From assembly GCA_020353515.1 (NCBI GenBank), contig CP070695.1:151234-172989 (forward strand): a DNA stretch of 21,756 nt, read 5' to 3'. Source of the stretch: Candidatus Heimdallarchaeota archaeon. GTDB lineage: Archaea > Asgardarchaeota > Heimdallarchaeia > Hodarchaeales > Hodarchaeaceae. The notes beneath the pieces are model-generated. The model was given only the letters and a program-made list of their open reading frames with translations, had not been told where the DNA came from and ran no database searches. Position 1 is the stretch's first letter. Every line of letters starts with the position of its first letter. Both the position numbers and the translations under genes were made by a program. Of this stretch, positions 3,333 through 19,072 are shown piece by piece.

Positions 3333-3767
3333 ATGCAAACATTCCTCCCGCATCCAAACTTTGAGCAATCCATTAGGTGTCTTGATTGGAGGCGCCTCGG
3401 AAACCAAAGAAGAGAAGCATTGCAAATCTTCAATGTCGTGTCTGGCATAAATCCAAATAGCAGATGGCGAAATCATCCGGCGGTTAAGATGTGGATGGGC
3501 TATGCTGGCGCAATAGCACATTATATGAATCTGTGTATTGAAGAGTGGATTAGACGTGGCTATAATAATAATATGCATATTCACCCATTAGATGTATATA
3601 AGATGCAATATCCACCGTGGCTTGGCACCGAGGTACTACACGCTTCTCACAGGTCAAATCTTTTAAGAAAAGACCCAGTGTGGTATGGTCAGTTCGGATG
3701 GACCGAATCAGACTATCTACCGTACTATTGGCCAACGCATAATATTAGCGAGAACAATAATCTTTAA
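3333..3767 (+). CDS. pyrimidine dimer DNA glycosylase / T4 endonuclease V-like protein (MSMEG_6728-like family)
   Basis: Characteristic MQTFLP...LDWRRLGNQRREALQI, HPAVKMWMGY, PPWLG...HASHRSNLLRKDP and YYWP motifs. Confidence 0.85.
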   Translation: MQTFLPHPNFEQSIRCLDWRRLGNQRREALQIFNVVSGINPNSRWRNHPAVKMWMGYAGAIAHYMNLCIEEWIRRGYNNNMHIHPLDVYKMQYPPWLGTEVLHASHRSNLLRKDPVWYGQFGWTESDYLPYYWPTHNISENNNL

Positions 3768-4255: not shown

Positions 4256-4504
4256 ATGAACTTTAATTTATTTAAAAAAATTAATGTAACTTTAGTAAGT
4301 AATGAGATTGACTTTCCAAAGCGTATATCAACAATAGAGAACACCACACTTAAAAATTTTTTTAATATATATTTAAATATGTGTATTGACAGTTATGTTA
4401 TACGTATTAAGACAAATAATACAACGATAACTGGCCGTAATGATTATATTATAAAAGATGGAGATTTAATAAGTATTGTCCCCAAATTAGTTCAAGCGTG
4501 TTAA
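4256..4504 (+). CDS. ubiquitin-like beta-grasp protein, paralog of 8997-9242, lacking the C-terminal Gly-Gly
   Basis: Colinear matches to the 8997 Ubl: INVTLVSNE/IEVTLVSND, TTLKNFF/VTLEDFL, VIRIKTNNT/TVRVRSNGT, DYIIKDGDLISIVPK/DYILQHGDRVSVAPK. Ends LVQAC. Confidence 0.8.
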   Translation: MNFNLFKKINVTLVSNEIDFPKRISTIENTTLKNFFNIYLNMCIDSYVIRIKTNNTTITGRNDYIIKDGDLISIVPKLVQAC

Positions 4505-7884: not shown

Positions 7885-8394
7885 ATGAAAACATTGGTAA
7901 TTGTGGATATGCAGAATGATTTTTTTGATGAAGCAATTACTTTGATTGATAATCCAATGTATAATTGTAATCATAATGTAGAATATATTATTCCAGTCAT
8001 CCAAGGTTTAGTTGCGCACGCAATTAAGTTACATTGGCCAATCATATTTGTCGAATATACTGGCTTCGGCAAAACAATGGAAGAAATATATGAATTAACA
8101 GAAAGCTATCGAAAACAACAAACTATCCCTAAAAATGAACCAAATGGTGCACCAGCAATACTAAACACAGTTCAAAACAAGAATTGGCCATTAAATATCA
8201 TAGTTTGTGGACTATATGGAAATGTATGTGTTTCAGAAACAGTTGCTGGATTATTGTATTTAACAAATGAAATAACAATATCGATAATCACAGATGCTGT
8301 CTGGCCAGATTATTGTTCTAGAACTAAAAATGGAGAAGAAATATTAATAATATCCGATAAAATTTTAAGAGAATCATCGTGTGCTGTAAAATAA
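7885..8394 (+). CDS. isochorismatase / cysteine hydrolase family protein (nicotinamidase-like fold)
   Basis: N-terminal LVIVDMQNDF (catalytic Asp), Lys in IPKNE, and VCGLYGNVCVSET (catalytic Cys) fit the Asp-Lys-Cys triad. Confidence 0.8.
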   Translation: MKTLVIVDMQNDFFDEAITLIDNPMYNCNHNVEYIIPVIQGLVAHAIKLHWPIIFVEYTGFGKTMEEIYELTESYRKQQTIPKNEPNGAPAILNTVQNKNWPLNIIVCGLYGNVCVSETVAGLLYLTNEITISIITDAVWPDYCSRTKNGEEILIISDKILRESSCAVK

Positions 8395-8922: not shown

Positions 8923-8990
8923 TAAGTGGATGTCCACTTATTTTTAAGTTGGGTCGTGTGACCCAGTAGTGTTATCTCTTTTATGGGAGA
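8923..8990 (+). promoter_or_regulatory. structured leader of the Ubl gene: three short inverted repeats, the last occluding the SD
   Basis: TAAGTGGA-tg-TCCACTTA (8923-8940), TGGGTC-gtgt-GACCCA (8950-8965) and TCTCTT-ttat-GGGAGA (8975-8990, two G-U pairs, includes the SD). Confidence 0.45.
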
Positions 8991-8996
8991 AAAATA

Positions 8997-9242
8997 ATGA
9001 TTGAAGTAACTTTGGTATCGAACGATGGTGACGGTGAACAGAAAGTCTATCCAGTTGCTGAAGGAGTCACTTTGGAAGATTTTCTAAGGTTGACTTGTGA
9101 AAGAAATGTTGTGGAAGGCGATGACCATACGGTTCGTGTCCGCTCCAACGGAACGAGCACCGAACCCGATTATGATTACATCCTCCAACACGGCGACAGG
9201 GTGTCTGTGGCGCCCAAGAAAATTGACGGAGGAAGTCGTTAA
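8997..9242 (+). CDS. ubiquitin-like protein (ThiS/MoaD/Ub beta-grasp) with C-terminal GG plus a 2-residue extension
   Basis: GGGAGA SD; beta-grasp pattern IEVTLV...GVTLEDFL...VRV..NG...DYILQHGDRVSVAP; ends KKIDGG-SR (GG codons 9228-9233); first gene of an E2/JAB/E1 cluster. Confidence 0.9.
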   Translation: MIEVTLVSNDGDGEQKVYPVAEGVTLEDFLRLTCERNVVEGDDHTVRVRSNGTSTEPDYDYILQHGDRVSVAPKKIDGGSR

Positions 9243-9261
9243 TTTGTTAGTAACCTCAATT

Positions 9262-9291
9262 GGGTGGGAGGAAACCCCTCCCACCCTTTTG
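9262..9291 (+). terminator. Rho-independent terminator or attenuator after the Ubl gene
   Basis: Perfect 10-bp GC-rich stem GGGTGGGAGG (9262-71) / CCTCCCACCC (9277-86), 5-nt loop AAACC, followed by TTTTG. Confidence 0.8.
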
Positions 9292-9315
9292 TCGTTATAA
9301 TAGAGTTATAGACCA

Positions 9316-10623
9316 ATGGATGCAAAACTTGTACGGCGAGCGGCATTCTTTTACCTAAGATGGCTCAAGAAACAACATTCAAAAAAATGTCTAAGGCCAA
9401 TGTCAGAAATACTTTACTGTCTTTCTTCAATAAATAAAAGAACTAAACTCATAACAAAATGGGTAAATAACTGTATCAAAAGATCATATATTACTAATCA
9501 CCAAAGAACTGAATTAAGACAGTGTAACAACGATTTAATATTGAGCACAAAAACATATAGAACTGTTGCCACACGGATGATTCCAAACCTGACAAACGAT
9601 ATCATAAAACTTCTAAACGAAGTAACCCGTAATTATGATTATGTAACTGAACGTTTTAATCATGAGATACCGTCTTTTGAATCCCTTATTCAAGAAGTTA
9701 ATGTGGTCAACAATTCTTGGGATGGAGTAGACTTTAAAGACGGAAAATTGTCTATCGTAACCAGAAACATTTTACTAGAACATAAAGGAAACTGGGTAGA
9801 TTTGGGAAAATTCAGGATCTGTTTAAATCTTAATTCTGGTAAACTGATAATAAACTCGCTAAATAAAATTGAATCGAGTGGTGGATTTTACCATCCTCAC
9901 GTTAAAGGGGGAGAATTGTGTTTTGGGGATGGTGATTTTCAAGCAGTAGAAGCACTGTCATCGGGAAAGCTAGAGGATTATTTTGTCACTATAGAAACAA
10001 TACTTAACACCTATAACCACGACTCCCCACATGAAAGTTTAACAGAATGGTATAATCCAGATCATGATGAAGAATTTGAGTGCGATGAATGTGGAGAATG
10101 GACCCCATTAGATAATAGAATAGACTGTCCTGTATGTGGCGGATTATGGTGTAATAGTTGTTGTTACTATGATGATGGTACATGTACTGACTGCGGATAT
10201 TTCCGGTGCTTAAGCTGTCAATATTTATGCGACCAATGCGAAAGTATCTTGTGCGAAAATTGTCGTATAATATGTACATGCGGTCATAGAACTTGCGGAA
10301 ATTGCACTACCGAATGTGAACGTTGTTCGGAAAATATATGTGACGAATGCCGTAAATTGTGTACGAATTGCGATGATGGTTTTTGTCCAGATTGTGCTGA
10401 AAAATGTGAATGTTGCGGGGAATATTTCTGTAAATTGTGCTCAATCTTCGAAGCATGTGAGGAATGTGGAAAAGAAATATGCGATGGATGCCAGTCATCT
10501 TGTAATGAATGCCAAAAACCTCTATGCAACGATTGCGCAAAAAATGAATGTGAACATTGTGGTATATGCATGTGCGAATTTTGTGAGGATGAACATAATT
10601 GTATACTAGAAGGTGTATCATAA
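9316..10623 (+). CDS. prokaryotic E2 (UBC-fold) ubiquitin-conjugating-like protein with an N-terminal helical region and a C-terminal Cys-rich repeat array
   Basis: YHPHVKGGELCFGD (H193-H195, C202 at codon 9919-21) matches the E2 HPN-x-GxIC signature, followed by ILNTYNHDSP. About 10 CxxC-x4-CxxC units lie in the array at 10081-10620. Sits between the Ubl and JAB genes. Confidence 0.75.
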   Translation: MDAKLVRRAAFFYLRWLKKQHSKKCLRPMSEILYCLSSINKRTKLITKWVNNCIKRSYITNHQRTELRQCNNDLILSTKTYRTVATRMIPNLTNDIIKLLNEVTRNYDYVTERFNHEIPSFESLIQEVNVVNNSWDGVDFKDGKLSIVTRNILLEHKGNWVDLGKFRICLNLNSGKLIINSLNKIESSGGFYHPHVKGGELCFGDGDFQAVEALSSGKLEDYFVTIETILNTYNHDSPHESLTEWYNPDHDEEFECDECGEWTPLDNRIDCPVCGGLWCNSCCYYDDGTCTDCGYFRCLSCQYLCDQCESILCENCRIICTCGHRTCGNCTTECERCSENICDECRKLCTNCDDGFCPDCAEKCECCGEYFCKLCSIFEACEECGKEICDGCQSSCNECQKPLCNDCAKNECEHCGICMCEFCEDEHNCILEGVS

Positions 10624-10636
10624 GGGTAATAATAAA

Positions 10637-11452
10637 ATGGAAATAGAAACTATAAAACCTAAAACAACATATGAAAATATCCTAAGATTTACTCCATATG
10701 CATATGCAAAATTATTATATATGCAAAATGCCGGCCCGACAGAAGTAGCAGGGTTCTGTGTAACCGGAACAGAAGATGCATTATTAGTTACCGATTTCAT
10801 TTTAATTAAGCAAAATTGCACACAGGTATCATTTGACCTAGACAAAGAAGATATCGCTGAATATCAAGAAAGAATGGTAGATAATGGACTAGAAGTTTGG
10901 CAATTTGCTAGAATATTAGCACACACACATCCCGGAAATTCACCGCAACCAAGCCGGACTGATGAGGAAAATTTTAAAAATGTTTTTACAAGACCAAGCT
11001 GGGCAATAATGTTTATTATAGCCGAAGATAAATCAACATATTGCAAACTAAAAATAAGTGTAGGGCCTGGTGTTCAAGTAATTTTAAAAACACAAGTAGA
11101 TTTCACACAACAGTTTGCAGCCAGTGATTTTCCAGAATGGGAAAAAGAATATAACGAAAAAGTAATAAAAGACACTATCTGGCAGGATGATATAGACAAA
11201 CATAAAATGTGGTGGGACCAAGAGCGTAGTATTTTTGGATACGATGACGAACTAGATGAACTTGATTGTCGGTGGGACCAAGATGGTAATGTTATATTCT
11301 TAGATGATGACGGTAATGAATATTATTATGACCCAATAAATAAAGAGTGGTTCATAGAAAATGAAAATGAAAATTTCCTTAGACAAATCTCTGAACCCAG
11401 AACTAATTGGGTTTCAAAAGTAAAAAAGTGGTCACAAAAATATGCTAATTAA
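10637..11452 (+). CDS. JAB/JAMM (MPN+) metallopeptidase; deubiquitinase or Ubl-maturing enzyme
   Basis: Catalytic Glu in PTEVAGF and an exact HxH-x7-S-x2-D motif HTHPGNSPQPSRTD (10922-10963). ATG 10637 preferred over GTG 10613. Confidence 0.9.
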   Translation: MEIETIKPKTTYENILRFTPYAYAKLLYMQNAGPTEVAGFCVTGTEDALLVTDFILIKQNCTQVSFDLDKEDIAEYQERMVDNGLEVWQFARILAHTHPGNSPQPSRTDEENFKNVFTRPSWAIMFIIAEDKSTYCKLKISVGPGVQVILKTQVDFTQQFAASDFPEWEKEYNEKVIKDTIWQDDIDKHKMWWDQERSIFGYDDELDELDCRWDQDGNVIFLDDDGNEYYYDPINKEWFIENENENFLRQISEPRTNWVSKVKKWSQKYAN

Positions 11453-11485
11453 ACGTAATTCTACCAACTAATGCGGAGTAATAAA

Positions 11486-12154
11486 ATGTTGAATCTAAAT
11501 AATAGAAATATCAGATACAAAGAACTAATTCCAGAAGAAAAATTAAACTCAATTCAAGCAACAGTCGTCGGGGTCGGTGCTATTGGAAGACAAGTTGTAT
11601 TACAACTGGCAGCCATCGGTGTCCCCCATATTAGCATTATAGATTTTGACACCGTTGGTGTAGAAAACTTGGGAACCCAAGGATTCCACGAAAGTGATAT
11701 AGGTAGATTTAAGGTCGACGCAGTATCTGATATATGTAGAGCAATCAATTCTAAAATAAATATAAATCCATCAAATACCAAATTTAGACCAATACAATTT
11801 ATAGGTGGAATATTGTTCTGTTGTGTAGATAGAATTGACACTAGAAAATCAATTTATAATGCAATTGGCCATCGTTGCGATTTATTCGTTGACGGCAGAA
11901 TGAGTGCTGAATATTTGAGAGTATTAAGCGCTTTTGATGATAAATCAAGAGAATATTATCTAACCACACTATTCCCCCAACAAGAAGCTTATGTTGGCTC
12001 ATGTACTGCCCAAACAACAATTTACTGCGCAAATATCGCAGCAGGATTTATGGTGGCGCAATTTATCAAGTGGTTGAGAGGATGTAATTTAGATATGGAT
12101 GTAGATATAAATCTTTTAACGAATGAGATGGGGGTTCATCAATATGAGAAATGA
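11486..12154 (+). CDS. ThiF/MoeB/HesA family E1-like adenylyltransferase
   Basis: GVGAIG nucleotide-binding loop, DFDTVGVENLGTQ, FKVDA, CVD and DGRM motifs; Cys in GSCTAQ at the crossover-loop position. GGAG SD supports ATG 11486 (ORF track 11471). Confidence 0.9.
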   Translation: MLNLNNRNIRYKELIPEEKLNSIQATVVGVGAIGRQVVLQLAAIGVPHISIIDFDTVGVENLGTQGFHESDIGRFKVDAVSDICRAINSKININPSNTKFRPIQFIGGILFCCVDRIDTRKSIYNAIGHRCDLFVDGRMSAEYLRVLSAFDDKSREYYLTTLFPQQEAYVGSCTAQTTIYCANIAAGFMVAQFIKWLRGCNLDMDVDINLLTNEMGVHQYEK

Positions 12155-12238
12155 TACTAATGCATTAGCTAAAGTGGTAAATCTAAAGCCAATCTTTGTC
12201 CTCGCCAAGCAAGAATTAGAAATGGATTGAAACCGTGC

Positions 12239-13024
12239 ATGAATAATTCGTTAAATTATGATTATTGGTACAATGTATGGAGAAATAGTAAAGAATCAAG
12301 TGCATGTATTGTGAGAGTTACAAATAAATGTGATCAACAATGCAGACACTGCGCTTTTCGATCTAGCCCATATAATACAGGTCAAATATCTATCGATAAT
12401 TGTGCCAAAATTAATAAGTGGCTTCCTGAAAAAATAGTAATGAATATTATGGGAGGAGAATTTTCAATTCTTCATGACTATGAAAGTATATTAATTGCGT
12501 TATCGCAATATAGATTGAAAGTTGGTATTGTAACAAATGGATTTTGGTCCAAAAATAAACATGAGATTTCAAGATTCATTTCTACCATTAAAACAATAAC
12601 AAAGACTTGCAACGAAGTAATAGTTTGTGTTGCAAATGATCAATGGCACAAAAAATATCCTCAAACAGAATCATTACTAAGAAAAAATAAATTAGATATA
12701 GAAATACAAATTAAAGAAGAATTACCTATTCATAAAATAGTTAGAATAGGAAGGGCATGGGATAATAAAATCAATAAATCAACATCCAATCATCAGTCAT
12801 GTAGAATAATGTCAAATCTAACCATAATAGAAAATGGAATGATAACAAGATGTCCTTATGGATACTTTCCATGGAGACATTTTACAGAAACATCATGGTA
12901 TGATGCACAAGAATATATTTGGGGGTGGAGGTCGGAAAAATTATCGGAGGGAATGACTTGTTCTTTGTGTATGGAGTGTGATTATGCAAATACCCAAAAT
13001 ACAATCGATTCAAATAATATTTGA
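12239..13024 (+). CDS. radical SAM protein with a C-terminal SPASM/twitch-like Cys region
   Basis: TNKCDQQCRHC (CxxxCxxC), MGGE and VTNGFW motifs; C-terminal C..CPY..CSLC. Start uncertain (TTG 12227 or ATG 12239). Confidence 0.85.
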   Translation: MNNSLNYDYWYNVWRNSKESSACIVRVTNKCDQQCRHCAFRSSPYNTGQISIDNCAKINKWLPEKIVMNIMGGEFSILHDYESILIALSQYRLKVGIVTNGFWSKNKHEISRFISTIKTITKTCNEVIVCVANDQWHKKYPQTESLLRKNKLDIEIQIKEELPIHKIVRIGRAWDNKINKSTSNHQSCRIMSNLTIIENGMITRCPYGYFPWRHFTETSWYDAQEYIWGWRSEKLSEGMTCSLCMECDYANTQNTIDSNNI

Positions 13025-14204: not shown

Positions 14205-15764
14205 TTGGACGCTTTTCAGACAATGTTCAATCATTATGTCTGTTCTGGTCATGCTTTATTATATGTAGACACATCCGAAAAAGATCGTGCAATAAATTCT
14301 ATAGCCAGCGCAGCCGAAGAAATAGGAAGACATATTTTGATATGGTCTGTTGCTACTGGTTGGAGGGATAAAAAGGGTAAACAAGTTAATAATCCTCCAC
14401 CAAGTCCCCAAATAGAAGATCATATACAATGGATAACTCAATCAGAAAAAAGTACAATTCATATACTACAAGATTTTGGGGAATATCTAAAACATGACAC
14501 ATATCCAAATTATGACCTAGTTATAAGTTGGTTAGATCAACTCCGTAAAATTATAGCTTCTGCTGAACAAACAATAGTGTTCGTTGGACCAGACCTTTTT
14601 ATCCCAAAAACATTACTACATGATATAACCAGAATAGATTTCGAATTGCCGGATACGGCACAAATCACAGAAAGAATAAATTTTATCTGTAGCTATGTTA
14701 TTGATGATAGTGGAAAACAAATCGAGCCAGATAAAAAATTAATTCCACAAATAGTGGATGCATGCAGGGGAATGACCGCCCAACAAGTTTGTGATCGGGT
14801 TGCTTTGGCACTAAGAATTCATAAGGATTTAAACGAAGGTTCAATTCAAACTATTGTTAGAGAGAAAGCTGGAGTAATACGTGCATCAGGATTATTAAAC
14901 TACATAGAACCACCAGATGGGGGACTGTCAAATATTGGTGGATACGATGCATTAAAACGACATGTAATGCTAGACAAACCCTGTTTTTCGCAAACTGCCA
15001 GAGATTTCGGAATAGAATTCCCTCGTGGATTAATGCTGGTTGGAATACCTGGTTGCGGAAAAACATTGCTATCTATTGCAATTGCGTCCGAACTAAATCT
15101 ACCACTAATATCTATGGATGTTGGAAATATAATGGACAAGTATGTTGGAGAATCTGAAAATAAAATTAGAGACGCAATTAAAATGATAGACAGGATAGCT
15201 CCATGCGTTCTACAATTAGACGAAATAGAAAAAGGATTTGGTGGTGCTGGGAACATGGAGGGCGGTGCCACACGCCGTGTATTTGGAACCTTCATAAAAT
15301 GGCTAAATGACAGAACATCTCCGGTATACATTGTTGCCACAGCTAATCAGGTTGAATCACTCCCTCCTGAATTTTGTAGAAAGGGTAGATTTGATGAAAT
15401 CTATGGATTAGACCTTCCTAATGATGATGAACGTCAAGAAATATTTAAAATCCATCTTAATAAAAGAAATAGAAATCCAATGGAATTTGAAATAGAATCT
15501 CTAGCAAATAAAACGAACGGATACACTGGTGCCGATATAGAACAAATAATAAAACTTGGATTAAAAATGGCATTTTTCAGAAAAGAATCATTATTCACAG
15601 CCCATTTATTAGAAGCTATTAAAGAAATTATTCCCCTATCGAAAACGGAAGCTAATCGCATAACTGCAACCAAAACATGGTGTGAAAAACATGCAAAACC
15701 GGCAAACAAAACAAACGATGTAAATATGTCTACAGGAAGAAAAGTTGTTATAGGTTCAGAATAG
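14205..15764 (+). CDS. AAA+ ATPase, Ycf46/SpoVK-like (classical AAA clade)
   Basis: AGGAG SD with TTG start; Walker A GIPGCGKT, pore loop KYVG, Walker B VLQLDEIEK, sensor-1 ATAN, Arg finger RKGRFD, GYTGADIE. Degenerate N-terminal AAA-like domain. Confidence 0.9.
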   Translation: MDAFQTMFNHYVCSGHALLYVDTSEKDRAINSIASAAEEIGRHILIWSVATGWRDKKGKQVNNPPPSPQIEDHIQWITQSEKSTIHILQDFGEYLKHDTYPNYDLVISWLDQLRKIIASAEQTIVFVGPDLFIPKTLLHDITRIDFELPDTAQITERINFICSYVIDDSGKQIEPDKKLIPQIVDACRGMTAQQVCDRVALALRIHKDLNEGSIQTIVREKAGVIRASGLLNYIEPPDGGLSNIGGYDALKRHVMLDKPCFSQTARDFGIEFPRGLMLVGIPGCGKTLLSIAIASELNLPLISMDVGNIMDKYVGESENKIRDAIKMIDRIAPCVLQLDEIEKGFGGAGNMEGGATRRVFGTFIKWLNDRTSPVYIVATANQVESLPPEFCRKGRFDEIYGLDLPNDDERQEIFKIHLNKRNRNPMEFEIESLANKTNGYTGADIEQIIKLGLKMAFFRKESLFTAHLLEAIKEIIPLSKTEANRITATKTWCEKHAKPANKTNDVNMSTGRKVVIGSE

Positions 15765-15772
15765 GAGATATC

Positions 15773-16753
15773 ATGAACAAAGAAAATAATTTTTCGCTTT
15801 TTAATCTTGGATGCTTGGTGAACCTAAGAATCCGTATGTGGTCGGGTAGAAAAATGTTAACAAGAGGAGACTTACAAAGAATAGGATATGACCCCAACAA
15901 ATTACCAAGTGATATCGTAAATCTTGGTAGAAAATTAATGGTTCCCAAGTCAGAATTACATGCGCTAACACATATCGATCAAAAATCACGCAATATTCTT
16001 GAAAAATGGTCAATGCCATTCGGGATAAGTAATGCACATTTTGTACCAGCAAAAATGTTACCAACGGTGGAAGCACAATTAAAAGAATTAAAAGAAGAAT
16101 TTTTCGAAAAGGTTGATAGTCTTATTGCGAGATTCGATGATCTGGTGGATACAGTAAAACAGGCACACCCAGACTTTTGGGAAAAGTGTTTAAGAAATCA
16201 TTATCCAGCAAATCCAAAAGCCCTGAGAAGCAAATTTCAATTTAATTGGTACACATTTAAAATAAGTGGAATAGACACTAAGGAAACAAGTGTTTCTGAA
16301 GCAATGACAGAGCATCAACTACAAATAGAAAAAAATCAAGAATTGCGCAAACAAATGCAAGAAGAAGTAAATAGGTTTGTTGAAGATTATGTAATCACTA
16401 TGAGACAGGAAACTGTTAAATTCTGCGAATTAGTACAAGCGAGAGTTAATGGTACTGCTTTTGGTGATGAAACCGAAAGTAAAATACTAACTCCACGATC
16501 TATTGGTTGTTTTAGAAAATACATTGATAAATTCAAAAATATGAATATATTTGGAGATAAAGAAATTGAAAAAATGTTGGATGAATTCAAGAATCAGTTT
16601 CTTAATAGTGGTGTCGGACCAAAGGATTTCGAATCTTCAAATGTTAAAGCTGGGGTTACAATGGCGCTAGAAGCCATTCGACAAAAAGCGGCAACGGAAA
16701 CCGAAAGTGCTGGTCAATTTATTGGTGAATTAAAGAGAAGAATAGTTTTATAA
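15773..16753 (+). CDS. DUF3150-like protein
   Basis: AGGAG SD; VNLRIRMWSGRK..LGRKLMVP..PFG...HFVP pattern recalled for DUF3150, and position next to a Ycf46-like AAA gene. Confidence 0.65.
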   Translation: MNKENNFSLFNLGCLVNLRIRMWSGRKMLTRGDLQRIGYDPNKLPSDIVNLGRKLMVPKSELHALTHIDQKSRNILEKWSMPFGISNAHFVPAKMLPTVEAQLKELKEEFFEKVDSLIARFDDLVDTVKQAHPDFWEKCLRNHYPANPKALRSKFQFNWYTFKISGIDTKETSVSEAMTEHQLQIEKNQELRKQMQEEVNRFVEDYVITMRQETVKFCELVQARVNGTAFGDETESKILTPRSIGCFRKYIDKFKNMNIFGDKEIEKMLDEFKNQFLNSGVGPKDFESSNVKAGVTMALEAIRQKAATETESAGQFIGELKRRIVL

Positions 16754-17010
16754 TGGACAAAAAAGATGTTTATGGCGCAGCCGTTAATTTATCTGGCCTA
16801 TGGGGACCATATAAAATGTCATGGGATGAAGAATGTAATCAGTATTATGATAAAAGTGGAGAATTTTCTGTAAACCAACTTGGAGAATACCATAGAGATG
16901 GGGTTATTGAATTTGCATCCCAGAATAAAAATGAAACATTTCTATGGGCTAGTGGTGTTAAAGCTGCTATGAAAATGTTAAGAGAATGGGCTTATACTGG
17001 AGAAAAATAA
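16753..17010 (+). CDS. hypothetical protein
   Basis: TAATG translational coupling, 85 aa. Confidence 0.65.
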   Translation: MDKKDVYGAAVNLSGLWGPYKMSWDEECNQYYDKSGEFSVNQLGEYHRDGVIEFASQNKNETFLWASGVKAAMKMLREWAYTGEK

Positions 17011-17011
17011 A

Positions 17012-17428
17012 TTGAGTCGTTATTGTAAAGTTGAAACAGAATTTAAAAATGAATCAGCATTAATAGCTGCATTGATGGAAACACAAAGATGGACCAAACA
17101 ACAGATAGAAGTCCATTCTACTCCAAAACATTTATTTGGATATACAGGGGATAAAAGAAAAGAAATAGCACATATTATTATTCGCCGAAAACATGTTGGT
17201 AGTGCATCTAACGATCTTGGCTTCATTAAAAATTCGAATGGCCAATACGAAGCAATAGTATCTCAATACGATAAACGAAGATATGGAGAAAATTGGTTCA
17301 AACAACTAAAGGGCAATTATGCATTTCATGCATTAAAATTAGAACAAGAACAACGAGGCCGCAGAGTAGTAAGAGAATTTAATAGAACTACTAAAAAACA
17401 ATTAGTTAGAATAACAGGATATAGATAA
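17012..17428 (+). CDS. DUF1257 (Ycf35-like) protein
   Basis: GGAG SD with TTG start; SRYCKVETEFKN..ALIAAL, LFGYTGD, AHIIIRR and NDLGF...GQYEAIVSQYD motifs. Confidence 0.8.
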   Translation: MSRYCKVETEFKNESALIAALMETQRWTKQQIEVHSTPKHLFGYTGDKRKEIAHIIIRRKHVGSASNDLGFIKNSNGQYEAIVSQYDKRRYGENWFKQLKGNYAFHALKLEQEQRGRRVVREFNRTTKKQLVRITGYR

Positions 17429-17684: not shown

Positions 17685-18041
17685 ATGTCCCTTACGTTTA
17701 TAAATCCATACACTGGAAAACCAGAAAAAGCAGTTTTCTGTTTTACCGGTAAATCTCCTAAACCAAGAAGTGAAATGCAGAAAATAGCTATTCAGGCAGG
17801 TGGTTCAGTTACAAAATCCATAACTAATCAAACCACTATCTTGGTAATAGCTGATCCACAAAGTCAATCAGCTAAAGCTAAGAGGGCAAGACAAAAACTA
17901 ATTTATATAATCAGTCCAGAAGAATTTTTTAAAATGTGTCAACATGTTTCTACAATAATTCCAGAAGTCAACAAAAAAGTATATTGTTCAATTCCCAAAA
18001 AAGAAAATAAATATTCTCAAAAAAGACGCATCAAATTATAG
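17685..18041 (+). CDS. stand-alone BRCT domain protein (LigA/RFC-type BRCT)
   Basis: FCFTGK..PRSEM....GGSVTKSIT..TTILV......SAKAKRA....IISPEEF is the NAD-ligase BRCT pattern. Confidence 0.85.
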   Translation: MSLTFINPYTGKPEKAVFCFTGKSPKPRSEMQKIAIQAGGSVTKSITNQTTILVIADPQSQSAKAKRARQKLIYIISPEEFFKMCQHVSTIIPEVNKKVYCSIPKKENKYSQKRRIKL

Positions 18042-18049
18042 GAGGAATT

Positions 18050-19072
18050 ATGCAAGACAGAAAATTGTGTTTTAATGATATTTTATTGGTTCCTTACTAT
18101 TCTGACATAGATTCTCGCACAGTTCCAGATATATCTACTAAAATTGCTAACCTGGAATTAAAAATACCAATCATATCATCTCCAATGGATTCAATAACCG
18201 GTGAAGATATGGTAGTATGTTTGGATAAACTCGGTGGATTGGGTATATTGTCTCGTCATATAAACATTCATCCCGATGATGAACTTTGTATGCAAATGCG
18301 TTCTATTAAATCTGCAATAAAACGCGGAGCAAAAAATATAGGATGCGCAATTGGCGTTAAAAATGATATTGTTACAAAAACTAAACATCTATTAAATAAT
18401 GGTTGTAATGTCATCTGTATAGATGTAGCGCATGCTGATCATGCTAAGATATACGAGACAACAAAAATATTAGCTAAATTAAAGGATGTATACAGGTTTA
18501 CTCTTATCGTTGGCAACGTTTGTACGCCTAGAGCGGCAATGAATTTAATTGATTGTAAAGCAGATGTAATAAAGGTAGGAATAGGACCAGGGGCAGCTTG
18601 TAGCACAAGGTTAATAACAGGCTTTGGATACCCTCAATTGTCAGCCATTCAAGAAATACGAAGCTATGCAAATAAAAGATCGGACCTTTATGGGAATAGG
18701 GTATTTATAATTGCCGATGGTGGACTTAGGACAAGTGGAGATATGGTTAAGTCTTTATGGGCTGGCGCTGATGCATGTATGATTGGATATATGCTTGCTG
18801 GAACTAATTGTGCTCCACAGATAAATGGAAAAAGAATATATCGAGGAATGAGTAGCCGCGCAGTATCCGGCAGATCAGACATAGCACCAGAAGGTGTAGA
18901 AATAGAAGTAGGGGATAATGGAGAAACAGAAGAGGTTATAAATGAATATATTAAAGGAATACGTTCTGGTCTTGCTATGGGCGGTGCATCTAATATAGAA
19001 GAATTAAGAAAAGTTGATTGTGTAGTGGTTAGTCCACTGTCAATAGAAGAAACATTGCCAAGGAATAAATAA
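18050..19072 (+). CDS. IMP dehydrogenase / GMP reductase family protein without CBS domains
   Basis: FNDILLVP, PIISSPMDS, IDVAHA, GNV, KVGIGPGAACSTR (catalytic Cys loop), IADGG, YRGMSS and PEGVE motifs; GGAGG SD. Confidence 0.9.
   Translation: MQDRKLCFNDILLVPYYSDIDSRTVPDISTKIANLELKIPIISSPMDSITGEDMVVCLDKLGGLGILSRHINIHPDDELCMQMRSIKSAIKRGAKNIGCAIGVKNDIVTKTKHLLNNGCNVICIDVAHADHAKIYETTKILAKLKDVYRFTLIVGNVCTPRAAMNLIDCKADVIKVGIGPGAACSTRLITGFGYPQLSAIQEIRSYANKRSDLYGNRVFIIADGGLRTSGDMVKSLWAGADACMIGYMLAGTNCAPQINGKRIYRGMSSRAVSGRSDIAPEGVEIEVGDNGETEEVINEYIKGIRSGLAMGGASNIEELRKVDCVVVSPLSIEETLPRNK

What the first reader, a model, noticed from the sequence alone, without database searches (positions are those of the whole stretch)
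8997..12154. Complete ubiquitin-like conjugation operon (Ubl-E2-JAB-E1) in a phage-like genome
Seen: four contiguous genes encode a beta-grasp Ubl ending ...IDGG-SR, an E2-like protein with HPHV-x5-C (C202), a JAB peptidase with an exact JAMM motif and a ThiF E1 with an intact adenylation site. The GG is masked by two residues, so a maturing protease is needed, and the JAB supplies one. Established: the same four components form the bacterial Bil (ISG15-like) antiviral systems, which conjugate Ubl to phage proteins; related parts occur in PRTRC cassettes and in CBASS Cap2/Cap3. Inference: here the cassette sits among phage-type early genes rather than in a host defence island. The element may therefore run its own ubiquitination pathway to tag host proteins, exclude competing phages or counter host Ubl-based defence. 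No ThiG, MoaE or cysteine-synthase partner is present in the window, which argues against a simple sulfur relay.
Basis: partly seen in the sequence, partly recalled or inferred. Interest (0 to 1): 0.92.

Follow-up and report, generated by a model that had tools for sequence, protein, structure and literature searches.

The report
Phage-borne ubiquitin-like protein-tagging cassette
A fragment of a roughly 160-kb uncultured tailed phage carries four adjacent genes that look like a complete ubiquitin-style protein-tagging kit (tag, activating enzyme, carrier enzyme, trimming protease). Such kits have so far been studied only as bacterial anti-phage defences, and what this one tags is unknown.

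Summary
Window 8997-12154 encodes, in order:
- a beta-grasp Ubl;
- a 435-aa protein whose core folds like a UBC/E2, with invariant H193-P194 and conserved C202;
- a JAB peptidase with an exact JAMM motif;
- a minimal 227-aa ThiF-type E1.

The window is one whole contig of a metagenome bin, not a chromosome. It and a second contig of the bin are collinear with a 160.7-kb viral contig that has terminase, portal and prohead protease.

The cassette recurs in the same order in seven related large-phage contigs. A sister clade occurs in at least 80 genome loci, nearly all Planctomycetota, some on chromosomes beside methylase, transposase and STAND-NTPase genes.

- Only one Gly is conserved in the Ubl, followed by 1-4 variable residues, as in Type II BilA. 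The "GG" is therefore incidental.
- The E1 lacks the MoeB R73-type arginine.
- The E2 belongs to no Pfam, PADLOC, PHROG or NCBIfam family. It carries a coiled-coil hairpin and a Cys array with 21 CxxC motifs.

New here: a GC-rich terminator hairpin right after the Ubl gene, conserved in all seven relatives compared.

Best reading (about 0.6): a Bil-like Ubl conjugation pathway carried by a phage, targets unknown. The scan has noted phage Ubl cassettes on other DNA many times. I found no paper in the held library that describes this family.

The parts
8997..9242 (+). Ubl precursor: 81 aa, beta-grasp, conserved ...K-K-I-D-G78 followed by the variable tail GSR.
   Evidence: Translation. Weak ThiS/MoaD hits. 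Atlas structure neighbours are ThiS, Ub-RnfH and Ub-Mut7C at TM 0.69-0.78. C-terminal pattern in seven relatives.
9262..9296 (+). GC-rich hairpin (10-bp stem, 8 G-C pairs) plus a T-run between the Ubl and E2-like genes. It looks like an intrinsic terminator or attenuator.
   Evidence: Terminator scan. An equivalent hairpin plus T-run, different in sequence, lies right after the Ubl stop codon in L006, L008, L011, L012, L014 and L026.
9316..9654 (+). E2-like protein, residues 1-113: long two-helix hairpin (coiled-coil-like).
   Evidence: AF2 model, pLDDT 93, helices 3-63 and 78-113. Structure hits are only generic helical hairpins.
9655..10065 (+). E2-like protein, residues 114-250: UBC-like core with H193-P194-H195 and the candidate catalytic C202 (codon 9919-9921).
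   Evidence: Domain model, pLDDT 89. VIA-align: the best rows are canonical E2s and about four fifths of the top 50 are UBC, UEV or RWD folds; best is UBE2S, Z 7.9, rmsd 3.9, 118 aa. The best Foldseek hits are E2s, E 0.1, TM 0.47-0.50. The first Pfam-named Atlas neighbour carries UQ_con, TM 0.49. Conservation.
10066..10623 (+). E2-like protein, residues 251-435: Cys-rich array with 46 Cys and 21 CxxC motifs 7-8 residues apart. Probably a string of Zn-binding knuckles or ribbons, possibly a target-binding or E3-like module.
   Evidence: Counts. The Cys columns are conserved. The model shows beta-hairpins. The only PDB sequence hits are weak ones to FYVE, RING and p44 Zn fingers, E 5e-5 to 0.01.
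10613..11452 (+). JAB/JAMM metallopeptidase, 279 aa (an alternative ATG start lies at 10637), with a family-specific C-terminal extension of about 130 aa. JAMM motif codons are 10922-10963.
   Evidence: Prok-JAB E 8e-7. PADLOC JAB models down to 2e-6. Motif positions. 34-47% identical in phage relatives.
11471..12154 (+). Minimal ThiF-type E1, 227 aa, a single adenylation domain with no Cys domain, UFD or rhodanese. C178 is invariant (codon 12002-12004) at the MoeB C187 / ThiF C184 position.
   Evidence: ThiF E 6e-26. Alignment to MoeB 1jw9. Invariant residues. 55-64% identical in phage relatives.
4256..4504 (+). Second Ubl-like paralogue, 82 aa, ending ...VPKLVQAC. It lacks the conserved Gly and is not seen as a separate gene in relatives.
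   Evidence: It hits the same Ubl ORFs of relatives as the main Ubl. Translation. Alignment.
14205..15764 (+). Cdc48/PAN/FtsH-type AAA+ ATPase, 519 aa. It lies 2-11 kb downstream of the E1 gene in the window and related phage contigs. It is a possible, unproven functional partner.
   Evidence: PF00004 5e-29. NCBIfam CDC48 3e-35 and PAN 2.5e-33. phrog_8638 1e-121. Positions in G001, G003 and G004.

Best explanation
This is a phage-encoded ubiquitin-like protein-conjugation pathway of an undescribed, Bil-like family.

The proposed steps are all inferred by analogy. None was assayed.
1. The 81-aa Ubl is made as a precursor. A conserved terminator-like hairpin after its gene would let its mRNA outnumber that of the enzymes.
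2. The JAB peptidase cuts after the single conserved Gly (G78, removing GSR), as BilC does with Type II BilA. It may also reverse conjugation.
3. The minimal ThiF-type E1 adenylates the Gly carboxylate. Either its invariant C178 takes the Ubl as a thioester, or the E2 cysteine attacks the adenylate directly.
4. The UBC-fold protein carries the Ubl on C202, next to the HPH motif, and passes it to lysines of target proteins. Its helical hairpin and Zn-finger-like Cys array would serve as built-in docking or target-selection modules.

The targets are unknown. They could be host proteins, proteins of competing phages, or the phage's own proteins.
For: Parts and motifs are confirmed.

UBC fold of the second protein:
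- The models are confident (pLDDT 93 and 89).
- About four fifths of the top 50 VIA-align rows are UBC, UEV or RWD folds, up to Z 7.9 over about 115-118 residues.
- The top Foldseek hits are E2s.
- The nearest Pfam-named Atlas cluster carries UQ_con.
- By interpolating the aligned ranges, C202 falls at the catalytic Cys of UBE2S (C95), Ubc13 (C87) and UBE2E1 (C131). Those residue numbers are from my own knowledge.

Resemblance to Bil:
- The gene order Ubl-E2-JAB-E1 equals that of Bil operons.
- A conserved Gly followed by non-conserved residues that the JAB removes is exactly what Chambers et al. showed for Type II Bil.

Conservation of the whole set: the four genes stay together, in order, across E1 identities down to 48%, in 7 phage-type contigs and about 80 genome loci. 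This argues for one functional unit. The terminator hairpin after the Ubl gene is conserved in structure but not in sequence.

Phage origin:
- The window is a whole contig of a bin.
- It is collinear with a 160.7-kb IMG/VR contig that CheckV rates 97% complete.
- That contig encodes terminase, portal and prohead protease.
- A second contig of the bin covers that structural module.
Against: - There is no biochemical evidence.
- The structure matches are middling. Z is below 8 and the Foldseek E-values are 0.1 or more, a range where a shared arrangement is possible without homology.
- No sequence model of any E2 family hits the protein or 105 of its homologues.
- The E1 is a bare ThiF/MoeB-type domain. 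It lacks the Arg equivalent to MoeB R73 and any E2-docking domain.
- Ubl + JAB + E1 with a masked Gly also fits sulfur-carrier systems of the QbsCDE or CysO/Mec type (my own knowledge).
- No target or E3 is identified.
Confidence: 0.6

Rival explanations
1. Sulfur-carrier pathway. The Ubl is trimmed by the JAB, adenylated by the E1 and converted to a thiocarboxylate that donates sulfur to a cofactor, nucleoside or peptide, as in ThiS/ThiF, CysO/MoeZ/Mec+ or QbsE/QbsC/QbsD. The UBC-like protein would be an accessory Zn protein, not a carrier.
For: - The Ubl's only sequence hits are to ThiS and MoaD.
- The E1's best models are ThiF and MoeB, and it is a bare adenylation domain.
- A radical-SAM gene follows the E1 in the window and in L011.
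Against: - The E1 has no rhodanese or sulfurtransferase domain.
- No ThiG, MoaE or CysM-type acceptor enzyme was found among the 34 ORFs scanned.
- The radical-SAM gene is absent from most relatives, and its best model is a peptide epimerase or maturase.
- The partner that is always present is the UBC-fold protein with a near-invariant Cys.
Confidence: 0.12
2. A defence or exclusion system that merely rides on the phage. The cassette works as it does in its cellular sister clade (presumably anti-phage or anti-mobile-element, Bil-like) and protects the infected cell, and so the resident phage, against competing phages. It is not a host-takeover tool.
For: - Bil systems with the same order and logic are anti-phage.
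- A sister clade of the E1, with the same four genes, lies in Planctomycetota genomes. This includes a complete chromosome and contigs of 0.4-0.9 Mb, next to an N6 methylase, a DDE transposase and a STAND/NACHT NTPase.
Against: - The phage-borne E1s form their own well-supported group (SH-aLRT 98). They are retained at a syntenic place in a family of large phages whose E1s are only 55-64% identical to the window's. This suggests a long-standing phage function rather than recent cargo.
- The defence role of the cellular clade is itself unproven. Only two neighbourhoods were annotated.
Confidence: 0.15
3. Counter-defence. The JAB strips host Ubl or CD-NTase conjugates (anti-Bil or anti-CBASS), and the phage Ubl, E1 and E2 act as decoys or re-tag host immune proteins.
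For: - The JAB gives weak hits to the Cap3 and desampylase models and to PADLOC JAB models of E1-E2 systems.
- Phages commonly carry homologues of host immune components (my own knowledge).
Against: - The hits are far below the cut-offs.
- All four genes, not just the JAB, are conserved together.
- No host Bil or CBASS partner is known, because the host is unknown.
Confidence: 0.07
4. Not a phage feature at all. The contig is part of the cellular chromosome of the binned organism (a prophage-free island).
For: The tool reports the window inside a 4.94-Mb 'single contig' genome.
Against: - That 'contig' is 114 pieces joined by 100-N spacers, and the window is exactly one piece.
- No cellular housekeeping gene was seen on it.
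- It is collinear with a 160.7-kb viral contig.
- The bin is an Asgard-type archaeon. The cassette's cellular relatives are almost all in Planctomycetota and the terminase's nearest cultured kin are bacteriophages, so mis-binning is likely.
Confidence: 0.04

Closest known systems
Type II BilABCD (CEHH/6C operons; Chambers et al., bioRxiv 10.1101/2023.09.26.559546) and Type I Bil (Hoer et al., 10.1101/2023.09.04.556158)
   Same: - Four separate genes in the order Ubl, E2, JAB-type DUB, E1.
- A single-domain beta-grasp Ubl with one conserved Gly followed by non-conserved residues, which the DUB removes in Bil.
- An E2 of UBC fold with a catalytic-type Cys.
   Different: - BilD is a multidomain E1 of about 450 aa or more with inactive and active adenylation domains, a Cys domain and a Zn site. 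Here the E1 is a 227-aa single ThiF domain.
- BilB has the C...H (CEHH) signature and no HPN. Here an HPH motif precedes the Cys as in eukaryotic E2s, and the protein adds a helical hairpin and a Cys array with 21 CxxC motifs.
- There is no PADLOC BilB hit, and only a weak BilD hit (4e-5).
- Bil operons sit in bacterial defence islands. This one sits in a large phage.
PRTRC cassette (ParB-related, ThiF-related; NCBIfam TIGR03734-03742) of plasmids and ICEs
   Same: A small ThiF-type E1 of similar length, together with E2-like and Ubl-like proteins, on a mobile element.
   Different: - The PRTRC ThiF model scores 35 bits against a cut-off of 144.75.
- No PRTRC A-E or ParB model hits any of the four proteins.
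CBASS Cap2/Cap3 and Bub (6E/DUF6527) operons (Ye et al., PMC11601596)
   Same: E1, E2 and peptidase logic in conflict systems. The E1 N-terminal half hits PADLOC 'E1-E2' models (down to 5e-12).
   Different: - Cap2 is an E2-E1 fusion that conjugates a CD-NTase, and no CD-NTase is present here.
- Bub uses oxyester intermediates and an E1-peptidase fusion with a serine protease. Here the Cys is conserved and the peptidase is a separate JAB.
Sulfur-carrier systems with a JAMM trimmer (QbsCDE; CysO/MoeZ/Mec+)
   Same: A Ubl with extra residues after the Gly, a JAMM peptidase and a MoeB/ThiF-type E1.
   Different: Those systems have a rhodanese or sulfurtransferase and an acceptor enzyme, and no UBC-fold protein. 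Here it is the reverse.

Membership tests
UBC/E2 superfamily (fold level) | alpha1, four-stranded beta-meander, loop with HPN-type motif, catalytic Cys, then alpha2-alpha3 | tested here: met
   The model shows H121-134, strands 136-181, HPH193-195, C202 and helices 204-230. VIA-align gives Z up to 7.9, and about four fifths of the top 50 rows are UBC, UEV or RWD folds. Foldseek and Atlas agree. The scores are middling, so this is fold-level support only.
UBC/E2 superfamily (sequence level: Pfam UQ_con, Prok-E2_A-E) | Match to a curated E2 profile | tested here: not met
   No Pfam family for P0002 at E up to 1, and none for 105 homologues at E up to 0.01. No NCBIfam, PHROG or credible PADLOC hit.
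UBC/E2 superfamily (activity) | Thioester with the Ubl on the active-site Cys | not testable with these tools
   Needs biochemistry.
Bil (Type I/II BilABCD) | Gene order Ubl-E2-DUB-E1 | tested here: met
   the Bil order is given.
Bil (Type I/II BilABCD) | Ubl with a conserved Gly at or near the C-terminus; the extra residues are trimmed by the DUB | tested here: met
   The sequence pattern is met: [DE]-G followed by 1-4 variable residues in 7 relatives. The cleavage itself was not tested.
Bil (Type I/II BilABCD) | Multidomain E1 (BilD) with a Cys domain | tested here: not met
   The E1 is 227 aa, a single ThiF domain. The PADLOC BilD hit is E 4e-5 over 109 residues only.
Bil (Type I/II BilABCD) | BilB-type E2 (profile match; C...H signature) | tested here: not met
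   No PADLOC BilB hit. The motif is HPH-x6-C rather than C-x-E-x-H-x-H.
Bil (Type I/II BilABCD) | Encoded in bacterial defence islands; protects against phage | tested here: not met
   The location test is not met: this copy lies in a phage genome fragment. The phenotype was not testable here.
PRTRC | PRTRC ThiF plus PRTRC A-E plus ParB models above their cut-offs | tested here: not met
   TIGR03736 scores 35.1 bits against a cut-off of 144.75. There are no other PRTRC hits.
CBASS Cap2/Cap3 | E2-E1 fusion, Cap3 JAB and a CD-NTase effector operon | tested here: not met
   E2 and E1 are separate genes. The Cap3 model scores 18.7 bits against a cut-off of 200. No CD-NTase was found among the scanned ORFs.
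ThiF/MoeB E1-like superfamily | Rossmann GxGxxG, Asp for ribose, Asn/Lys/Asp for ATP-Mg, and an Arg equivalent to MoeB R73 | tested here: inconclusive
   PF00899 E 6e-26. G34, G36, G39, D58, N66, Q70, K81 and D120 are invariant. The R73 position is T, A, S or P. A family-specific invariant R40 might compensate.
JAMM/MPN+ peptidases | E...HxHx7Sx2D metal site | tested here: met
   E44, H104, H106, S114 and D117 are present. Prok-JAB scores 29.3 bits against a cut-off of 25.
Sulfur-carrier pathways (ThiS/MoaD/CysO/QbsE) | Sulfurtransferase or rhodanese domain, and an acceptor enzyme (ThiG, MoaE, CysM) nearby | tested here: not met
   None was found among the 34 window ORFs scanned against Pfam. 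About 20 small ORFs were not scanned.

The most novel reading that the evidence does not exclude
The phage runs its own ubiquitin-like degradation or remodelling pathway. Its E2, with a built-in Zn-finger target-binding tail, tags host or rival-phage proteins with the phage Ubl. The Cdc48/PAN-type AAA+ ATPase kept 2-11 kb downstream in the window and related phage contigs recognises and unfolds the tagged proteins. That would be a virus-encoded analogue of the ubiquitin-Cdc48/proteasome axis in a prokaryotic system.

A still bolder variant, which I rate at no more than 0.05, is that the binning is correct. The virus would then infect the Asgard archaeon it was binned with and interfere with that host's eukaryote-like ubiquitin system.
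Probability: 0.1. Interest if true: 0.9.

Novelty: new variant of a known kind. Interest (0 to 1): 0.6.

Why it matters
Bacterial ubiquitin-like conjugation (Bil, Cap2, Bub) has been characterised only as host immunity against phages. A complete, conserved cascade owned by a family of large phages would show that viruses of prokaryotes also use this chemistry, as eukaryotic viruses do.

The E2-like protein defines a large family that current catalogues do not recognise:
- 1,243 cluster representatives match at E up to 1e-3.
- It keeps a eukaryote-like HP(H/N)...Cys signature.
- It is fused to a possible substrate-selecting Zn array, so it may be a one-protein E2/E3.

The minimal 227-aa E1 would be among the smallest enzymes feeding an E2. 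Together with the Planctomycetota sister clade, the family offers a compact and tractable system for asking how E1-to-E2 transfer works without a Cys domain or UFD.

Tried and rejected
- Complex prediction with E1 + Ubl(1-79) + E2 core as partner: no verdict (score 0.01). This is neither for nor against binding.
- Full-length E2 model against PDB: Foldseek gave only weak, scattered matches, none to an E2. VIA-align was dominated by the helical hairpin. Both are uninformative for the core and for the Cys tail.
- Profile of 150 homologues against PDB sequences: only weak FYVE, RING and p44 Zn-finger hits to the Cys tail, and none to the core.
- JAB against PDB sequences: nothing at E up to 0.1.
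- Ubl profile against PDB: nothing significant; Urm1 at E 0.79.
- Cassette DNA and the E2 protein against 50,697 phage records: no match. The putative capsid of G001 also gave no match.
- The word-index protein search found only 5 homologues, which wrongly suggested rarity. The exhaustive search found 1,243.
- Phylum-wide search with alignment A3: most of the 82 'positive' genomes matched only the Cys-rich tail (noise). Core matches were limited to G000 and about 3 others. I should have used the core alone.
The E1 alignment was used instead.
- Sequencing runs: no RNA holder listed. The holders are sediment metagenomes from 2 studies.
- No exact or near-exact matches (candidate CRISPR spacers) between the two phage contigs and the rest of the bin, and no end overlap between the two contigs.
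- No archaeal SSU rRNA was found in the bin.
- Radical SAM as part of the cassette: rejected, because it is conserved only in L011.
- A second E2-like paralogue in the window: none. It was seen only in L026/L027, and two core hits in L089.
- Literature searches found no paper that describes this phage family. Rambo et al. (10.1101/2021.07.29.454249) report only E1-like genes in Asgard viruses.

Full report
WHAT IS THERE

The window has long ORFs almost only on the + strand.

- **Ubl, 8997-9242.** An 81-aa protein ending KKIDGGSR. It gives only sub-threshold ThiS and MoaD hits. The ESM Atlas model of this exact protein superposes on ThiS, Ub-RnfH and Ub-Mut7C clusters at TM 0.69-0.78 over 72-75 residues. 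A beta-grasp fold is therefore well supported.
- **E2-like, 9316-10623.** A 435-aa protein with no hit in Pfam, NCBIfam or PHROGs and no credible hit in PADLOC.
- **JAB, 10613-11452.** A JAB peptidase with an exact JAMM site: E44, H104-x-H106, S114, D117. It also has a family-specific C-terminal extension of about 130 residues.
- **E1, 11471-12154.** A 227-aa ThiF-type E1, PF00899 6e-26.

IS THE SECOND PROTEIN AN E2?

The word-index search found only five homologues. An exhaustive phmmer search with residues 1-262 found 1,243 cluster representatives at E up to 1e-3, and 103 at E up to 1e-10.

Across 150 of them, H193 and P194 are invariant. H195, C202 and G204 are at least 90% conserved. None of 105 members matches any Pfam E2 family.

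AlphaFold2 models are confident: pLDDT 93 for the full length and 89 for residues 100-262. They show four parts:
- a long helical hairpin (residues 3-113);
- a helix, a beta-meander, the HPH loop, C202 and two helices, which is the UBC order of elements;
- a tail of beta-hairpins.

The domain model was searched against structure libraries.
- Aligned without Foldseek to 48,161 PDB representatives, the best rows are canonical E2s and about four fifths of the top 50 are UBC, UEV or RWD folds. The best is UBE2S at Z 7.9, rmsd 3.9 A, 118 residues.
- The best Foldseek rows are UBE2L3 and other E2s, at weak E-values of 0.1 or more and TM 0.47-0.50.
- In the ESM Atlas the nearest clusters are unnamed (Planctomycetota, Uroviricota). 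The first Pfam-named one carries UQ_con, TM 0.49.

I interpolated the aligned ranges to place C202. It falls at the known catalytic Cys of UBE2S (C95), Ubc13 (C87) and UBE2E1 (C131). This is an inference, and the residue numbers are from my own knowledge.

I conclude that a UBC-like fold with a plausible active site is supported at fold level. Membership in any described E2 sequence family is not.

The tail (residues 251-435) holds 46 Cys in 21 CxxC motifs spaced 7-8 residues apart. It gives only weak FYVE, RING and p44 Zn-finger similarities. It is probably a string of Zn sites. Its role as a docking or E3-like module is a guess.

THE UBL END AND THE E1

In seven relatives the Ubl ends K-x-[VI]-[DE]-G followed by 1-4 variable residues: GSR, AVC, ALA, E, P, ATL, AVTL. 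The conserved feature is therefore one Gly (G78 here), not GG.

This is the pattern Chambers et al. report for Type II BilA: a universally conserved Gly, then up to nine non-conserved residues. They showed that the JAB-type BilC cuts right after that Gly. By analogy, the JAB here should remove GSR.

The E1 keeps G34xG36xxG39, D58, N66, Q70, K81 and D120. It also has an invariant C178 where MoeB has C187 and ThiF has C184. At the position of MoeB R73 it has T, A, S or P. It has no Cys domain, UFD or rhodanese.

A CONSERVED RNA-LEVEL FEATURE

Twenty bases after the Ubl stop codon lies a 10-bp, 8-GC hairpin followed by TTTTG (9262-9296). The genome is about 33% GC.

Each of six related contigs compared has a different GC-rich hairpin plus T-run at the same place, between the Ubl and E2 genes. 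The structure is conserved but the sequence is not, which argues for function.

The simplest reading is an intrinsic terminator or attenuator that gives more Ubl than enzyme mRNA. That suits a tag consumed stoichiometrically. This is an inference.

WHERE IT SITS

The 4.94-Mb "single contig" genome is 114 contigs joined by 100-N spacers, and the window is exactly one of them.

- The window is collinear with positions 134-160 kb of a 160.7-kb IMG/VR contig (G001), which CheckV rates 97% complete.
- A second, 46-kb contig of the same bin is collinear with its first 42 kb.
- That region encodes a large terminase, a portal and a ClpP-like prohead protease.
- The terminase's nearest cultured relatives are Bacillus and Rhizobium phages at about 26% identity.

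Other genes on the window are typical phage accessories:
- a pyrimidine-dimer glycosylase;
- an isochorismatase-family protein;
- a radical-SAM protein;
- an IMPDH/GMP-reductase-like protein;
- a BRCT protein;
- an AAA+/DUF3150/DUF1257 module.

The cassette is conserved in order in L006/L015, L008-L010, L011, L012/L013, L014, L026/L027 and L029. These lie on contigs of up to 169 kb.

THE BIN AND THE HOST

The bin is an Asgard-type archaeon.
- Canonical UQ_con occurs in 210 of 301 genomes of its phylum, five times in this genome, and in none of 14 control genomes.
- The genome encodes a full-length actin, E 1e-132.

This is probably not the host.
- A scan of 185,579 species genomes with the E1 alignment found 154 loci. 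The best 80 are almost all in Planctomycetota MAGs: Sedimentisphaerales, Phycisphaerae and Pirellulales.
- The Atlas neighbours of both the Ubl and the E2 are Planctomycetota or Uroviricota.
- The hairpin terminators and the phage-type AAA+ module (phrog_8638, 1e-121) point to the bacterial virus gene pool.
- I found no spacer-like matches within the bin.

I rate a bacterial host at about 0.8. It remains open.

A CELLULAR SISTER CLADE

Nearly all of the 80 genome loci carry the same Ubl, E2-like, JAB, E1 order wherever the flank is present. The counts are E1 79, JAB 75, E2 core 67 and Ubl 57.

Some lie on a complete 4.9-Mb chromosome (OY775912.1) or on contigs of 0.4-0.9 Mb. Their flanks share nothing with the phage.

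Two neighbourhoods were annotated.
- One has an N6-methylase fragment, a weak MORC-like ATPase hit, and PEP-CTERM and FG-GAP genes.
- The other has a DDE transposase and a STAND/NACHT NTPase.

Several MAGs hold 3-4 copies.

A quick maximum-likelihood E1 tree separates the phage-borne sequences, plus one 27-kb contig binned with a Thermoplasmata MAG, from the 79 Planctomycetota-type rows. The separating branch has SH-aLRT 98. This was the quick method, rooted at the midpoint only.

So this is a broad, undescribed family with a cellular or mobile-element branch and a large-phage branch.

HOW IT MOST LIKELY WORKS

My estimate for this reading is about 0.6.
1. Precursor Ubl is made in excess.
2. 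The JAB trims it after G78.
3. The E1 adenylates the Gly.
4. The Ubl passes to C202 of the UBC-like protein, directly or via C178.
5. It is then transferred to lysines of targets chosen through the hairpin and/or the Zn array. The JAB may also reverse the conjugation.

Shown here: the parts, the motifs, the fold-level similarity, the conserved linkage and the phage location. Inferred: every chemical step and the targets.

A Cdc48/PAN-type AAA+ ATPase stays 2-11 kb downstream in the window and related phage contigs. It is absent next to the cellular copies. In phages, synteny alone can explain this, so a functional link is only a hypothesis.

RIVALS

- A sulfur-carrier pathway (0.12). It is weakened by the absence of any sulfurtransferase or acceptor enzyme and by the ever-present UBC-like partner.
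- Defence cargo used for inter-phage competition (0.15).
- Counter-defence (0.07).
- Not phage at all (0.04).

COMPARISON AND NOVELTY

It works like Bil in order, in Ubl maturation logic and in having a UBC-fold E2. It fails the tested membership features of Bil (E1 architecture, BilB profile and signature, location), of PRTRC and of Cap2/Cap3.

I class it as a new variant of a known kind. The library searches found no paper describing it. The nearest statement is that some Asgard viruses carry E1-like genes.

The scan's own notes list many phage Ubl cassettes on other DNA.
- One close relative was noted whose "E2" could not be confirmed and which was linked to a Cdc48-like ATPase (e1-3429187). 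Here the E2 fold did get support.
- A planctomycete mobile-element operon was also noted (e1-3871904). It agrees.

Because the kind is known and recurrent in the scan, I score interest at 0.6 rather than 0.92.

Noticed in passing
G000 (whole bin); e.g. G000:C1:2936847-2937953 and G000:C1:3976260-3982469: The genome the window was binned with is an Asgard-type archaeon. It has a full-length actin (E 1e-132) and five canonical UQ_con E2 genes. One of these lies about 6 kb from an E1-like gene, so the host has its own eukaryote-like ubiquitin cluster. UQ_con is present in 210 of 301 genomes of the phylum and in 0 of 14 controls. The phage contigs are probably mis-binned, but a real Asgard host is not excluded.
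   Followed up: partly
G000:C1:47485-93855: A second contig of the bin (46 kb) belongs to the same phage. 45 proteins match G001 1-42 kb in order, including terminase, portal, prohead protease and a DNA methyltransferase.
   Followed up: partly
window 4256-4504 (+): A second Ubl-like paralogue (82 aa) ends ...KLVQAC, with Ala where the family's conserved Gly sits. It is possibly a non-conjugatable or decoy Ubl. No separate orthologue was seen in relatives.
   Followed up: partly
window 14205-17428 (+), and L006 17402-21267: A conserved module: a Cdc48/PAN-type AAA+ ATPase (phrog_8638, 1e-121), DUF3150 and DUF1257, plus DUF2997 in L006. The AAA+ gene (about 30% identical) is shared with Rhizobium phage L338C and Pseudomonas phage PaMx31-like phages. 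Its function is unknown.
   Followed up: partly
L026 7123-7839 (+); L089 2565-3818 and 4184-4942: Some distant relatives carry two E2-like paralogues in the cassette. One has the Cys-rich tail and one is a bare 238-aa core that keeps HPHV...C.GDG. They might form an E2/E2-variant pair.
   Followed up: no
L056-L135 (genome contigs), e.g. L080 = OY775912.1:3655325-3667966: The same four-gene cassette occurs in at least 154 loci of species-representative genomes, almost all Planctomycetota. There are often several copies per MAG, and E1 branch lengths do not follow taxonomy. Annotated neighbours include an N6 methylase, a DDE transposase and a STAND/NACHT NTPase. This suggests a mobile or defence-island system.
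   Followed up: partly
window 3333-3767, 17685-18041, 18050-19072, 7885-8394, 12227-13024 (+): Accessory genes: a T4 endonuclease V-type pyrimidine-dimer glycosylase (2.6e-26), a stand-alone BRCT protein (1.4e-11), an IMPDH/GMP-reductase-like protein (5e-77), an isochorismatase-family protein (1.7e-14), and a radical-SAM protein whose nearest model is the YydG-type peptide epimerase (1.6e-11).
   Followed up: no
window 8923-8967 (+): Two more hairpins lie just upstream of the Ubl gene, one followed by a T-run. The Ubl gene may therefore be a separate, terminator-flanked transcription unit.
   Followed up: no
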